44,280 nucleotides of DNA from Chrysochromulina tobinii. Its lineage: Eukaryota. The translations under genes and the position numbers were made by a program. Positions 21,323-34,923 of the stretch are shown here, piece by piece. The stretch covers positions 1 through 44,280 of the forward strand of contig JWZX01003033.1 of assembly GCA_001275005.1 (NCBI GenBank). Direction: 5' to 3'. The notes under the pieces are model-generated. The model was not told where the DNA came from, did no database searches, and saw only the letters and a program-made list of their open reading frames with translations. How positions within the stretch are numbered: position 1 is the stretch's first letter; every line of letters starts with the position of its first letter.

Positions 21323-21430
21323 AAAAGGCACCGGGGGGAGCGGGGACACACACGGGACACGCGGACGCACAAAGGCGCACGGACCGCACAGACGAACCTC
21401 ACAACAATCCAAACCCAACAACAACACTCA
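21323..21430 (+). repeat. Dispersed short repeat family B, copy 1
   Basis: AAAAGGCACCGGGGGGAGC...ACACGCGGACGCACA...CAGACGAACCTCACAAC...AAACCCAACAACAACAC aligns closely with the reverse complement of 31930-32046. Confidence 0.8.
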
Positions 21431-31682: not shown

Positions 31683-31929
31683 CAGGTCCTAAGATCCTGA
31701 ACACGCACACTGATCGCACTCTAGGTACCCGGGGAGACAAAATATCTTACACGCTCGGTTGAGCGCGTCGCCTACCGGTACATTACCGGTAGGCGCTCTG
31801 GGAGCGGGTGGAGGCAGGGTCGGGTTCGCTGGGGGCGGCCTCTTCTGAGTCGGCCGCGGGGAGCGGTCGGCTCCGGGCCTGCGGCTGTTGAGTCGGCCGC
31901 GGCTTCGGTCGTCGCGCTGACGTGCGAGG

Positions 31930-32046
31930 TGTGTGTTGTTGGTGGGTTTCGATGGTTGTGAGGTTCGTCTGTGTGGTCTGTGTGCCTATGTGCGTCCGCG
32001 TGTTCCGTGTGTCTCGTGAGCGTCCCGGCTCCCCCCGGTGTCTTTT
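31930..32046 (-). repeat. Dispersed short repeat family B, copy 2
   Basis: Reverse complement AAAAGACACCGGGGGGAGCC...ACACGCGGACGCACA...CAGACGAACCTCACAAC...AAACCCACCAACAACAC matches 21323-21430. Confidence 0.8.
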
Positions 32047-32105
32047 TACCGGTAACTTGCGCATGGGACGCTCGGTTTCTTCCGGACTCCCATTTGGCGA
32101 CATCA

Positions 32106-34340
32106 ATGGCGATGGAGCTTCGTCTAGTGGCCGGAACTCCCGCGCGCCCGGATCGCCCAGAAGTCATCAGGCTTCGTGACGGGCTGACTATTGGGCGCCA
32201 CACCAAGCCGCTTCCGAAGCCTGGAGATAAAGGCCCACTTTCGTGTATGCAAGGGTGCGAGTTTTGCGCCAGGCAATCCTACGCCGATGTGGGTCTCGGC
32301 CTGTGCAGGGACTCTATCATCGGCCGGCTGCAGGCGCGGGTGGCCTTGGACTCCAACGGCCATCTCCGGCTGCACCAGCTTAGCCAGGTCAGCCGCACGC
32401 GCGTCGGCGACAAGGTGCTCAAGGCTGACCACTCAGAGCAACTCCTAGATGGGTGCTCAGTCATCTTCGGCGGCTCGGATACTGAGTACGCTTACGTATG
32501 CCGCTCAAGCGTGATGATCGCGGAGGAAGAGGACGGGGGCGAGGAAACCGATGTCGAAGACGGACTGCACGCTTCGGCGGCGGTGGCGGCAGTGGCCAAG
32601 GCGGCCGCAGAGGCCAAGGCCGCCGTGGAGGCGGAAATACAGGCGCTTGCCGAGGCGAAGGCGGTCGCCGAGGCGCAGGTTGCCGCGGAGGCGAAGGCGG
32701 CCGCCGAGGCGCAGGTCGCCGCGGAGGCAAAGGCGGCTGCCGAGATGGAGGCAGCCGCAGAGGCGAGGGCGGCCGCGGAGGCGAAGGCGGCCTTGGCCCG
32801 CAAGCGGAACGTATGGAGTGTCTTCGACGAGGACGATGATGATGAACCGTTGCCGTCGCCGCCACCGCCGCCGGCTGCTGCCTCGAGCGGCGCCGGCGTG
32901 GTAGTGCCATCCGTGGAGGCGCCGCTGGACAACGCGGGTGGCGCGGAGTTCGATGCGGGCGGCGCAGAGAGCGACGTGGCGCAGGCGTTCGCCGAGGCAA
33001 AGTCGCCACAGCCTCCTGCGCCTTCGTCCGTGACTGCGCCGGTGGTCGCGTCTATGCCGGCAGCAGCGCCTTTAGGTCCTAGCGGAACGCCTGGCATGTG
33101 GCAGGTCTTGCTGGGCAATACCCTCCGCCCGTACGAGCCGTCGGTGCAGCACACGCTCGAGTCGGCCTTGATGGCCGGCAAGACGGTCGCCAAGATCACT
33201 GTGCGAGGCACTGACTACGTCGTGAGCCTGCATGAGCCACGCAGGCAGACGAGCGCGGCAGATTCGACCAAGACGCGACCAGTGCGTCGCGAGGGCGGGC
33301 CGCCGCCACCCGCTTTCGTCGACTTGTGTATGTCGCCAGAGGACGAAATGTCTGCGTACAAGATGCCGAGGCGCGAGCGCGACTACGGCTCTCCATCAGC
33401 CATGGCATCGCCCTCGACCGACGTGTCCGACTCGCCAGTCAAGCGCAGGCGAGTGAACGACTCCGAGGACGCGGGCAGCCACGAGCGCGCTGGAGCGCCC
33501 ATGACCGCTACCGGTCAAGCAGCTACCTCTGGCTCGCAGGCCAAGCTAAATTTCTTAACGGCGGGGCAAGTCGATGCATTCCTCTCGAGCTGTGCCTTCA
33601 CAGCTCCGCCAATCGGCGGCAGTCCTGCAGCGGTGCACGCCTCGGTGCACGCCTCCGTGCCAAGGGTTAGCAACAAAGACCAGCAGCGCTGGAAGTATAA
33701 GAACTTCGAGATCCAACGCGCGCCAACGCTAGTGATCAACGGCACCAAGTACACTGATCCGAAGGAGCTACCGAACGAACTGCCTCGCCGGAAAAACTCG
33801 AGTACCTTCTTTGTCACTGTGAATCCCAACAAGGTCGTCCCAGACGACTTGAAGGCTGTGGCCGATGATGCATGGAAAGAGGGCTTACAAGCCCTTGAGC
33901 AGGGCGTTGCTGAAAACGGCACGTGCATCAAGTTTGGACCCAACGACCCCGCCACATTTGCAGCAGACCGCTTCGAAGACGTCATCATTGGGCGGCCGAA
34001 ATTCGTTGCCAAGACCGAGGTTGGCCCGAAGTCCGGCCGGCTGCACGCACATCTTCGTGTGAAGGTCGTCCATTACTCTCAAGTTCACCTCTCGATACCG
34101 AAGATACAAGAGATCTTCAAGAAGGCGTATGACGAAGCAGTGGCTAAGGCCGCCCGGAAGCATACAGGCGGCGACATGAGGCGCACTGCTCATGTGAAAA
34201 GCCAATTGCAAATAAATGGCTTGCCATATGTCGACATTGAGCTTCTGTCACAGTCCAACGCATCGGAGATCATGCTGCGGTACATGTTCAAGGACGACGT
34301 AGCTGCTTGCCCAGATGCAGGTGACGATGACGATGAATGA
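32106..34340 (+). CDS. FHA-like + AEAKAA-repeat + WWE + C-terminal HUH (Rep-like) endonuclease fusion protein
   Basis: FHA-like LTIGR..IIGRLQARV..LRLHQLS..TRVGDKVL..LLDGCSVIFGG. WWE: WQVLLGNTLRPYEPSVQHTLESA..ITVRGTDYVVSL..RQ....RPVRR (33096-33290). Rep motifs FFVTVN (33807-33824), EVG..GRLHAH (to 34052) and RYMFK (34281-34292). Confidence 0.7.
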   Translation: MAMELRLVAGTPARPDRPEVIRLRDGLTIGRHTKPLPKPGDKGPLSCMQGCEFCARQSYADVGLGLCRDSIIGRLQARVALDSNGHLRLHQLSQVSRTRVGDKVLKADHSEQLLDGCSVIFGGSDTEYAYVCRSSVMIAEEEDGGEETDVEDGLHASAAVAAVAKAAAEAKAAVEAEIQALAEAKAVAEAQVAAEAKAAAEAQVAAEAKAAAEMEAAAEARAAAEAKAALARKRNVWSVFDEDDDDEPLPSPPPPPAAASSGAGVVVPSVEAPLDNAGGAEFDAGGAESDVAQAFAEAKSPQPPAPSSVTAPVVASMPAAAPLGPSGTPGMWQVLLGNTLRPYEPSVQHTLESALMAGKTVAKITVRGTDYVVSLHEPRRQTSAADSTKTRPVRREGGPPPPAFVDLCMSPEDEMSAYKMPRRERDYGSPSAMASPSTDVSDSPVKRRRVNDSEDAGSHERAGAPMTATGQAATSGSQAKLNFLTAGQVDAFLSSCAFTAPPIGGSPAAVHASVHASVPRVSNKDQQRWKYKNFEIQRAPTLVINGTKYTDPKELPNELPRRKNSSTFFVTVNPNKVVPDDLKAVADDAWKEGLQALEQGVAENGTCIKFGPNDPATFAADRFEDVIIGRPKFVAKTEVGPKSGRLHAHLRVKVVHYSQVHLSIPKIQEIFKKAYDEAVAKAARKHTGGDMRRTAHVKSQLQINGLPYVDIELLSQSNASEIMLRYMFKDDVAACPDAGDDDDE

Positions 34341-34923
34341 GACCTGCCGCATGCTACGCGAGGACTTAGTAAAGCTGTCGCAGTGACCTGTGTGCCGAGT
34401 GGGCGCACTGCAGCGTTCAGTAGCGCGCGTGGCGGGCGCGGAGCGACCGATCAGGTGCCAGAGGAGCCCACAGCTCAGGGTCGCGGCAGGCGCCGCCCGC
34501 CGGTGCGTCGCGTGCGGGAGGCGAGGGTCGAGTCGCGCTGCGAAGCCCGTGCCCCGCGCGAGAGATTGAGGCTATTGAGCATCGTGACGGTTTTTCGAAT
34601 TACGGGGTCGAATTATTTGTAACTCGCACAGTACACACTATGACAACACCCCGGCTCTACCGTACCGTACATGCGTCGACCATCCTTGAAATCTAGACCT
34701 AATACATCGTCGAATATCTTCGAGTACGAAAGACGTGGTGCTGGTGGGGTATTGCACGAGATGCGCGGGAGCGGGCGGGGCAACCCCCGCCGCCGCACGA
34801 GCAACCGCCGCGCGCCGCGGCAGTCGCAAGTCGCGCTTCGGCTCGGCCACGCGGACTCTCTACCTCGACTACGTCCTGTCGCGTGGGCAGTGCGATCTCA
34901 CTCGTCTCTCTCCCCGCTCTAAC

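What the first reader, a model, noticed from the sequence alone, without database searches (positions are those of the whole stretch)
32106..34340. Rolling-circle Rep (HUH) nuclease domain fused to FHA-like and WWE reader domains: candidate domesticated DNA-processing enzyme
Seen: the C-terminal ~230 aa has, in order, FFVTVN (RCR motif I, FxTxN), EVGPKSGRLHAHL (motif II, E-x-G...uHuH) and RYMFKD (motif III, YxxK catalytic Tyr). It ends in an acidic tail with no SF3 or Pif1 helicase. Upstream in the same intronless ORF are an FHA-like domain, an AEAKAA helical repeat, a WWE domain and a SIM-like FVDL. Established: this motif triad defines the Rep nucleases of CRESS viruses and RCR plasmids and the helicase-less HUH transposases (Replitrons). 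FHA and WWE modules read phospho-Thr and poly(ADP-ribose) in DNA-damage proteins (APTX/PNKP/APLF for FHA; RNF146 and PARPs for WWE). Inference: a viral or transposon Rep was captured by a host gene and may act as an ssDNA nickase/joiner recruited to damage sites, or an element captured host targeting modules. I know of no described protein with this architecture.
Basis: partly seen in the sequence, partly recalled or inferred. Interest (0 to 1): 0.88.

Follow-up and report, generated by a model that had tools for sequence, protein, structure and literature searches.

The report
Algal gene built from viral nickase
This freshwater alga transcribes an intact gene that joins a DNA-nicking-type domain, likely captured from small haptophyte viruses (mriyaviruses), to domains predicted to read DNA-damage marks, and the predicted DNA-gripping surface varies unusually fast between close relatives, so it likely serves as an antiviral weapon taken from the virus.

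Summary
32106-34340 (+) is one 744-aa ORF with an FHA-like domain (moderate support), an AEAKAA repeat, a WWE domain (Pfam), a SIM-like motif and a C-terminal HUH domain with E638, H647, H649, Y726 and K729. RNA contigs join WWE to HUH without gaps, and the HUH part looks single-copy. The domain is not a Replitron, Helitron or CRESS Rep. Its nearest relatives (31-37% identity) lie in 15-44 kb viral contigs with the HUH + HUH_long layout of Gamadviridae (mriyaviruses, haptophyte viruses). The host is a freshwater Chrysochromulina, judged from neighbouring genes. Fused forms make one clade (96/85) with at least four architectures: FHA-HUH, WWE-HUH, WWE-FHA-HUH and FHA-WWE-HUH. Among close variants the HUH core differs by up to 22% while neighbouring genes differ by under 1% at the median. 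Changes concentrate on the predicted ssDNA-recognition strand and catalytic residues stay fixed. Best reading (0.45): a domesticated viral nickase used against rolling-circle viruses. Rivals are a repair enzyme or a low-copy mobile element. No activity or dN/dS was shown. The window's join to the upstream GT47 gene is probably a misassembly across a high-copy repeat.

The parts
32106..34340 (+). Single ORF, 744 aa, FHA-like / AEAKAA repeat / WWE / SIM-like / NLS-like / HUH
   Evidence: RNA contigs in 4 of 4 RNA runs laid
32106..32510 (+). FHA-like domain (aa 1-135): G30-R31 kept, S-x-x-H replaced by G73-R-L-Q76, Cys-rich insert (C47, C51, C54, C67)
   Evidence: Atlas 29 of 30 hits FHA; alignment; no Pfam hit; fold model unusable
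32553..32810 (+). 18-nt tandem repeat coding the AEAKAA helical linker; copy number differs in variant P0048
33096..33296 (+). WWE domain; Y371, Q381 and R391 match RNF146 Y144, Q153 and R163; the Y107 position is V334
   Evidence: Pfam; family profile vs 3v3l E 3e-4; essential residues from PMC10793466
33315..33347 (+). SIM-like FVDLC plus acidic run (aa 404-414); similar motif in 5 of 12 host-type proteins
   Evidence: post-hoc pattern
33432..33452 (+). Basic NLS-like SPVKRRR; basic clusters in 10 of 12 host-type proteins
   Evidence: nuclear role inferred
33678..34310 (+). Gamadvirus-type Y1 HUH endonuclease domain (about aa 525-735)
33807..33824 (+). Motif I (FFVTVN), first strand
34017..34052 (+). 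E638 and motif II H647-A-H649 (predicted metal ligands)
   Evidence: invariant in 146 of 146 rows
34221..34253 (+). Strand before the catalytic helix (aa 706-716), positional equivalent of the ssDNA bridging motif; 7 of 11 sites vary among close variants
   Evidence: motif definition from PMC7826260; equivalence inferred from position
34281..34292 (+). Motif III Y726-M-F-K729 (predicted catalytic Tyr)
34341..34604 (+). Transcribed 3' region; RNA contigs of three runs end at 34601-34604
   Evidence: contigs; only a weak hint of an end
31791..32054 (.). High-copy dispersed repeat inserted about 50 bp upstream; not part of a gene-carrying element; site of a probable misjoin in the window

Best explanation
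The gene is a transcribed Chrysochromulina gene whose C-terminal HUH domain was likely captured from a Gamadviridae-type mriyavirus and is likely used as an antiviral nickase. Shown: intact ORF, RNA cover, Rep-like fold model, all catalytic residues, kinship to gamadvirus-type HUH, WWE domain, hypervariable HUH among close variants. Inferred: (1) the basic motif takes the protein into the nucleus, where mriyaviruses are proposed to replicate by rolling circle; (2) nicked and single-stranded viral DNA draws poly(ADP-ribose), SUMO and phospho-marks, which WWE, the SIM-like motif and perhaps FHA read, so these modules replace the virus's own origin-loading partners; (3) the HUH domain cuts displaced viral ssDNA and stays bound by a 5'-phosphotyrosine link, or competes with the viral Rep at the origin, and so aborts replication; (4) virus escape drives repeated change of the ssDNA-recognition strand while the active site is kept.
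For: Origin: the 16 IMG/VR loci found are 15-44 kb viral contigs at 31-37% identity. In 7 of 16 the next ORF (1591-1888 aa) ends in a second HUH domain, the HUH_long layout of Gamadviridae. The one record that could be searched (G001, 39.6 kb) has adjacent A32 ATPase and VLTF3 genes. The best HUH structural match, SIRV1 ORF119, is the one reported for mriyavirus HUH. Described gamadviruses infect haptophytes; neighbours of this gene cluster at 90% or more with Chrysochromulina parva proteins. Host gene, not provirus: no other ORF from the 16 viral loci matches the window; one contig at flank depth covers the HUH domain in 2 of 2 DNA runs; L021 sits among cellular genes. Family: 15 host-type rows form one clade, 96/85, with WWE and/or FHA in different orders. 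Conflict signature: 16 of 29 close variants differ by 10% or more (up to 22%) in the HUH core, against medians of 0.2-0.75% and a maximum of 5.2% for 80 variants of six neighbouring genes. P0048 differs at 1 of 131 FHA but 23 of 172 HUH sites, P0037 at 0 of 50 WWE but 38 of 173 HUH sites. E638, H647, H649, Y726 and K729 do not vary among 13 close types. The recognition strand is less conserved among host copies than among viruses (0.41 vs 0.69) at equal overall divergence (0.50 vs 0.51). Precedent: an endogenous parvoviral Rep (DeRep) inhibits a parvovirus (abstract of PMC10384997).
Against: No activity, localisation or infection data. No DNA for the close variants, so no dN/dS; alleles and paralogues cannot be told apart, and some mosaics may be metagenome chimaeras. 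Linkers in the divergent variants also differ by 7-15%, and the HUH core exceeds the linker rate in only 2 of 6 Fisher tests, so older haplotypes or paralogues with relaxed constraint can give the pattern. The neighbour control is capped by 90% clustering and used at most 14 listed members per gene. The host recognition strand has drifted away from the conserved viral one, which is not what a mimic binding a conserved viral origin would need. In other host-type clusters HUH variation is small (0-9 of about 210 sites). Nesting inside the viruses is unresolved: viral monophyly has support 42/26. Host context is shown for only two loci (this one and L021). P0013 lacks the catalytic Tyr.
Confidence: 0.45

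Rival explanations
1. Domesticated genome-maintenance enzyme: the readers bring a sequence-relaxed ssDNA nickase/joiner to PARylated breaks or stalled forks, where it trims or rejoins single strands.
For: WWE keeps 3 of 4 iso-ADP-ribose residues; FHA, WWE and SIM-like modules recur across the clade; expressed in 4 of 4 RNA runs laid without known infection; loss of the virus-conserved recognition strand fits relaxed specificity; pN 0.29-0.38 vs pS 0.66-0.76 between distant copies shows long-term constraint.
Against: A housekeeping enzyme should vary like its neighbours (under 1% median), not by 11-22%; the architecture changes from lineage to lineage and no synteny is seen between L017 and L021.
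Confidence: 0.2
2. Transposase of a low-copy, helicase-free HUH mobile element derived from gamadvirus HUH, with FHA/WWE/SIM modules steering insertion to breaks; the close variants are paralogous copies in other strains.
For: Several divergent, mosaic variant types at 75-98% identity; shuffled accessory domains; different neighbours in L017 and L021; HUH transposases arose several times.
Against: One copy at 85% identity or more in both DNA runs; no terminal repeat pair found around the ORF; no DNA similarity in the flanks of L019-L021. The adjacent high-copy repeat ends facing the gene, joins many unrelated flanks and carries a 15-bp flanking duplication in L017, which points to retrotransposition rather than HUH action.
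Confidence: 0.2
3. A captured viral gene under relaxed selection, drifting and picking up mobile WWE/FHA modules without a specific role.
For: WWE-like sequence about 88% alike occurs elsewhere in the same DNA runs, so these modules move; degenerate copies exist (P0013, P0034).
Against: Catalytic residues are fixed across 13 close types with 77 variable sites in the region; FHA and WWE stay nearly unchanged where HUH differs; the ORF is intact and expressed; pN is below pS across the clade.
Confidence: 0.1
4. The fused clade belongs to unsampled viruses or episomes that captured host reader domains, and this locus is a recent single-gene insertion from one of them.
For: Most fused relatives come from short metagenome contigs without context; gamadviruses already carry a long N-terminally extended HUH.
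Against: Two scans of IMG/VR with host-clade patterns returned only the stand-alone viral genes already seen (2 and 4 loci); both loci with context are cellular; P0006 lies on a 328-kb contig.
Confidence: 0.05

Closest known systems
Mriyavirus (Gamadviridae) HUH endonuclease and HUH_long (Yutin et al. 2024, PMC11253617)
   Same: Same Y1 motif set, same best HUH structural match (SIRV1 ORF119), 31-37% identity to genes in contigs with the gamadvirus layout; falls on the short-HUH side when rooted on HUH_long.
   Different: Sits alone among cellular genes, fused to FHA/WWE/SIM-like modules; recognition strand diverged; no capsid, ATPase or helicase nearby. The paper's main text has no occurrence of 'integrat', 'endogen' or 'host genome'.
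DeRep, endogenous parvoviral Rep of degu (PMC10384997, abstract)
   Same: Host-encoded, expressed viral Rep, reported to inhibit a related virus.
   Different: Parvovirus origin, one mammalian locus, no reader fusions mentioned in the abstract; here a mriyavirus-type domain in a multi-lineage algal clade.
Replitrons (Craig 2023, PMC10288648)
   Same: Eukaryotic, helicase-free Y1 Rep domain with a Glu before motif II.
   Different: HUH not HUQ, RYMFK not GYxxK, no ~90-aa second domain, not multicopy. ReplitronL-1_cTob from C. tobinii is a different protein on reading.
Helitron RepHel and CRESS-virus Reps
   Same: Shared HUH fold (Helitron 7lcc Z 6.4; geminivirus Rep Z 5.6).
   Different: No Y2 motif and no Pif1 or SF3 helicase.
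TnpA-REP (RAYT), domesticated bacterial Y1 HUH (search listing)
   Same: Chromosomal, domesticated HUH enzyme; fold match 4er8 Z 6.1.
   Different: IS200/605 lineage in bacteria, acts on REP hairpins, no chromatin-mark readers.
FHA-bearing repair enzymes (APTX, PNKP, APLF) and WWE proteins (RNF146, PARPs)
   Same: Reader module plus catalytic domain design; the WWE profile matches RNF146, DTX1 and TRIP12.
   Different: The catalytic domain is a viral-type HUH nickase; this FHA lacks the canonical Ser/His (roles recalled).

Membership tests
Rep-class Y1 HUH endonuclease | Motifs I, II (HUH with upstream Glu) and III (YxxK) in Rep order on strand, strand, helix | tested here: met
Rep-class Y1 HUH endonuclease | Rep/HUH fold | tested here: met
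   VIA Z 8.8, rmsd 2.6, 100 aligned to 2x3g; Z 8.0 to 4kw3; several more HUH chains in the top 16, although two Thg1 chains tie at Z 9.3; Foldseek PDB gave nothing at E<=0.001
Rep-class Y1 HUH endonuclease | Metal-dependent ssDNA nicking with covalent Tyr adduct | not testable with these tools
   needs biochemistry
Gamadviridae HUH family | Nearest relatives are in gamadvirus-type genomes (35-45 kb, HUH next to HUH_long, A32 ATPase, VLTF3) | tested here: met
   7 of 16 loci show HUH_long; 1 of 1 searchable record; 4 not held
Gamadviridae HUH family | Direct match to the published PEV/yaravirus HUH sequences | not testable with these tools
   supplement alignments gave no sequence text; top BFVD hit A0A2H4YB87_2, E 1e-7, is unnamed
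Gamadviridae HUH family | Branches within the short-HUH lineage | tested here: inconclusive
   on the short-HUH side of the HUH_long root (100/100); nested vs sister unresolved
Endogenous mriyavirus (provirus) | Other viral genes next to the HUH gene | tested here: not met
   tblastn of ORFs from the 16 viral loci hits only the HUH domain; neighbours are cellular
Replitron | HUQ motif II and GYxxK motif III | tested here: not met
   HAH and RYMFK vs definition
Replitron | ~90-aa helical domain after the Rep | tested here: not met
   protein ends 15 aa after K729
Replitron | Multicopy element with short terminal direct repeats | tested here: not met
   one contig at flank depth in 2 DNA runs; no terminal repeats; other strains not examined
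Helitron / CRESS Rep | Fused SF1B or SF3 helicase (Y2 for Helitrons) | tested here: not met
WWE domain | Pfam PF02825 above cut-off | tested here: met
   25.9-31.3 bits vs 21.1
WWE domain | Four iso-ADP-ribose residues (RNF146 Y107, Y144, Q153, R163) | tested here: inconclusive
   3 of 4 kept by alignment; binding untested
FHA domain | FHA fold or profile match | tested here: inconclusive
   Atlas 29 of 30 FHA but only 144-159 shared features; Pfam none; model pLDDT 37
FHA domain | Phospho-Thr motif G-R / S-x-x-H / N (recalled) | tested here: not met
   G-R kept; Ser and His replaced; relatives such as P0073 keep them (Pfam FHA E 1.1e-6)
Virus-derived restriction factor | Inhibits the cognate virus; positive selection at the interface | not testable with these tools
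   protein-level hypervariability only

The most novel reading that the evidence does not exclude
Haptophytes carry an undescribed family of antiviral enzymes made by turning the mriyavirus replication initiator against the virus: a catalytically intact HUH nickase repeatedly fitted with PAR, SUMO and phospho-readers that home it to viral rolling-circle intermediates, with a diversifying ssDNA-recognition strand that records an ongoing arms race.
Probability: 0.4. Interest if true: 0.9.

Novelty: new variant of a known kind. Interest (0 to 1): 0.76.

Why it matters
Host-encoded HUH enzymes in eukaryotes are described as transposases (Helitrons, Replitrons) or as rare virus-derived Reps. A clade of mriyavirus-type HUH domains fused to damage-mark readers was not found in the papers searched. 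It would give (1) a candidate innate antiviral system in a major algal group, (2) indirect support and a test handle for the proposed rolling-circle replication of mriyaviruses, (3) fossil evidence that Chrysochromulina relatives meet gamadviruses, and (4) natural specificity variants of a small HUH domain, of use for mapping ssDNA recognition and for HUH-tag work. If the repair reading is right instead, it would be a new kind of covalent ssDNA nick-and-join enzyme in eukaryotic repair.

Tried and rejected
No whole genome is held for the window, so copy number rests on contig depth. Pfam finds nothing in the HUH domain; Foldseek on PDB gave no match at E<=0.001, with MoaC on top; tblastn of phage records gave no match; GTDB genomes gave none (67 pattern hits, 0 relatives). 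The FHA search of the protein database found no relative among 485 candidates; the single-sequence FHA model was unusable; a profile of five FHA-HUH relatives matched no solved structure; the WWE alone found no PDB relative until a family profile was used. Two lake runs laid to get variant DNA for pN/pS held no cover of the domains. No RNA contig bridges 32684-32739; this lies in the tandem repeat and is no evidence of splicing. The AU test of nesting was not informative. IMG/VR ids were not found in the mriyavirus supplement. Rejected: Replitron identity with ReplitronL-1_cTob; the idea that the 31766-31798 palindrome is an element end (it is the junction of the high-copy repeat); mobilisation of that repeat by this HUH (flanking duplication and variable far ends point to retrotransposition; not excluded). 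The repeat has no Rfam match and only weak folding (z -1.76). Earlier findings of this scan: four look-ups returned nothing. Genome records behind L017, L018 and L021 are not held.
Full report
OBSERVATION. The stretch 32106-34340 (+) is one ORF of 744 aa. It carries, in order, an all-beta N-terminal domain (aa 1-135), an acidic stretch and an 18-nt AEAKAA repeat, a WWE domain (Pfam E 1.3e-5), a SIM-like FVDLC-acidic motif, a basic SPVKRRR motif and a C-terminal domain with FFVTVN (568-573), E638..H647-A-H649 and Y726-x-x-K729. No helicase follows. An AlphaFold model of the last 226 aa from a 13-row alignment (pLDDT 74.7) puts motif I and the HUH on strands and the Tyr on a helix. It aligns to SIRV1 ORF119 Rep (Z 8.8, rmsd 2.6, 100 residues), bocavirus NS1 (Z 8.0), a Helitron transposase (6.4) and TnpA proteins (6.1-6.4); two Thg1 chains tie at the top with Z 9.3. 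Foldseek on PDB was not significant. I could not read model coordinates, so clustering of His, His and Tyr is inferred from the superposition range. Across 146 family domains E, H and H are invariant, Y is kept in 145 and K in 143.

EXPRESSION AND COPY NUMBER. Six RNA runs hold 82-93% of the ORF's words; I laid four of them. Gap-free contigs without differences run 32740-34604 (X13), 32913-34489 (X14), 33165-34604 (X11) and 33165-34601 (X12), so in two runs the whole WWE and the HUH lie on one RNA contig. The N-terminal part is covered from about 32100 up to 32683. No contig bridges 32684-32739 inside the repeat. The GT47 gene and 34648-34881 have essentially no RNA cover in X11 and X13, which argues against DNA carry-over. 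In both DNA runs laid, one contig without differences covers the HUH domain at flank depth (47.1 vs 44.8; 89.5 vs 81.7) and nothing else at 85% identity or more lies there. These runs may be the window's own source, and depth is not a copy number, but a multicopy family in this strain is unlikely. Neighbouring proteins cluster at 90% or more with Chrysochromulina parva entries (3 of 6 clusters list one), so the host is a freshwater Chrysochromulina.

ORIGIN. A scan of IMG/VR gave 16 loci on 15-44 kb contigs at 31-37% identity. In 7 of them the next ORF, 1591-1888 aa long, ends in a second HUH domain; in the others the contig ends soon after or the order differs. The one record that could be searched (39.6 kb) has neighbouring A32 ATPase and VLTF3 genes. 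This is the layout that Yutin et al. give for Gamadviridae: 35-45 kb genomes, HUH next to HUH_long, haptophyte hosts, proposed nuclear rolling-circle replication, best match SIRV1 ORF119 (PMC11253617, parts 1-3 of 7 read). I could not compare with the published sequences themselves, since the supplement alignments gave no text. No other ORF of those viral loci matches the window, so this is a single captured gene and not a provirus. Integrated gamadvirus-like regions are reported in haptophyte assemblies (passages of 10.1101/2022.07.28.501842 and 10.1101/2025.04.19.649669), which gives a route. Replitron membership fails on motif II, motif III, the second domain and copy number (PMC10288648, parts 1-2 of 7 and supplement hits).

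A FAMILY, NOT A SINGLETON. A profile search of 1.84 billion representatives found 1168 proteins at E<=0.001 (best 150 listed). Most listed ones are stand-alone proteins of about 210-300 aa. The longer ones carry readers: Pfam WWE in P0013, P0053, P0058, P0067 and L020, Pfam FHA in P0073, and FHA-like segments by my alignment in P0013, P0052, P0053, P0054, P0067 and L019 (not Pfam-confirmed). The orders differ: FHA-HUH, WWE-HUH, WWE-FHA-HUH and, here, FHA-WWE-HUH. In a 53-row tree rooted on HUH_long, the 15 rows I labelled host-type form one clade (96/85; LG+G4, bootstrap not fully settled) on the short-HUH side; whether they nest in or are sister to the viral rows is unresolved. A 146-row quick tree also gave one clade (SH-aLRT 97) among the stand-alone proteins. 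Cellular context is shown only for this locus and for L021 (RCC reductase, U-box kinase, methyltransferase); two rows (P0004, P0005) show no reader. Two further IMG/VR scans with host-clade patterns found no fused form in a virus. SIM-like motifs occur in 5 of 12 host-type proteins and basic clusters in 10 of 12 (post-hoc patterns). The direction virus-to-host is inferred from the gene being core in all mriyaviruses, from the HUH_long root and from the narrow host clade.

READERS. A profile of six WWE-HUH proteins matches RNF146 WWE (3v3l, E 3e-4), DTX1 and TRIP12. [quoted passage not shown] The FHA call rests on the Atlas (29 of 30 hits, score 0.94) and a short match to P0073. G-R is kept, but S-x-x-H reads G-R-L-Q and a four-Cys insert lies between them, so classical phospho-Thr binding is doubtful (motif roles recalled).

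HYPERVARIABILITY. Of 32 close variants from metagenomes, 29 align over at least 150 residues of the HUH core; 16 of these differ from the window by 10% or more, up to 22% (three rows dropped as too short or frameshifted). Six neighbouring genes, with 80 of 84 listed variants long enough, differ by medians of 0.2-0.75%, at most 5.2% (capped by 90% clustering). Internal controls point the same way: P0048 differs at 1 of 131 FHA sites, 5 of 67 WWE sites and 23 of 172 HUH sites; P0037 at 0 of 50 WWE and 38 of 173 HUH sites (Fisher p 3e-4 and 3e-5). Several variants are mosaics. Linkers differ by 7-15% too, and the HUH core beats the linker rate in only 2 of 6 tests. Variable sites crowd aa 689-728 (27 of 40, against 35 of 126 in aa 563-688) and position 643 shows five residues, while E638, H647, H649, Y726 and K729 never change in 13 types. 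The strand before the catalytic helix is the positional equivalent of the ssDNA bridging motif that sets Rep specificity (passages of PMC7826260). At equal overall divergence (0.50 vs 0.51), host copies are much less alike than viruses on this strand (0.41 vs 0.69) and on the catalytic helix (0.39 vs 0.61); no other 24-residue window shows as large a gap (rows are not independent). Between distant host copies pN (0.29-0.38) is below pS (0.66-0.76, near saturation). In other host-type clusters the excess is small (0-9 of about 210 HUH sites).

MECHANISM. An enzyme taken from a virus of this host group, kept catalytically intact, stripped of viral partners, repeatedly given nuclear damage-mark readers and diversifying on its DNA-recognition face fits a restriction factor best. 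It would be recruited to PARylated or SUMOylated viral replication sites and would nick and covalently cap displaced ssDNA, or block the viral Rep. A parvoviral precedent exists (abstract of PMC10384997). All functional steps are inferred, and I give this 0.45. A repair role (0.2) explains the readers but not the variability. A low-copy transposon (0.2) explains variability and shuffling but lacks copies and termini. Drift (0.1) and an unsampled fused virus (0.05) remain.

CONTEXT CORRECTION. Two other assemblies (L017 and L018, identical over 16.7 kb) match the window only from 31791 onward and have a different gene upstream. 31791-32054 is a dispersed repeat at roughly 1,400 times flank depth (summed contig depth) with one fixed end and variable far ends. 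In L017 a 15-bp sequence is duplicated on both sides of it; in the window it is not. The window's GT47 neighbour is therefore probably a misjoin, and synteny tests should use the L017 arrangement.

NOVELTY. Full-text searches for Rep + HUH + FHA domain + WWE domain and Chrysochromulina + WWE domain gave no paper; the listings for HUH endonuclease/domesticat/WWE (20 of 97 shown), gamadvirus terms and co-opted viral elements showed none on this family. Subscription journals are not covered. The domain belongs with a known family and domesticated viral Reps are a known kind, so I rate it a new variant of a known kind, interest 0.76.

Noticed in passing
window 31791-32054 (older, diverged copy at 21323-21430, minus strand): Very high-copy dispersed repeat (about 1,400 times flank depth) with a fixed end in a T-run plus ACCGGT, variable far ends, head-to-tail arrays and a 15-bp flanking duplication in L017; likely a SINE or truncated LINE end that favours ACCGGT sites. 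No Rfam match.
   Followed up: partly
window 31790/31791 vs L017 and L018 1-6131: Probable misjoin in the window: two other assemblies put a 523-aa membrane protein that reads like an acetyl-CoA transporter (recalled; not scanned) head-to-head with the HUH gene, not the GT47 gene.
   Followed up: partly
window 33134-33280: Other WWE-coding stretches about 88% alike occur in the same DNA runs, suggesting recent WWE duplication among genes of this genome.
   Followed up: no
window 32244-32306: Four-Cys insert (C47, C51, C54, C67) inside the FHA-like domain; possible zinc site.
   Followed up: no
window 33573-33599: Short amphipathic motif (DAFLSSCAF type) about 35 aa before the HUH domain, found by pattern in 10 of 12 host-type proteins; possible oligomerisation or partner helix.
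   Followed up: partly
cluster of P0001: The protein is listed only from JGI/IMG and ENA gene calls, while several neighbours also have NCBI/EukProt entries; the gene may be missing from reference annotations (15 of 23 members seen).
   Followed up: no
L003, L006, L007: A gamadvirus-like subgroup in which the HUH gene is not followed by HUH_long and the VLTF2-like block is inverted.
   Followed up: no
window 32143-32236 and 32319-32425: RNA contigs 82-86% alike to the FHA-coding region (X11, X14) indicate an expressed paralogue of this unusual FHA-like domain.
   Followed up: no
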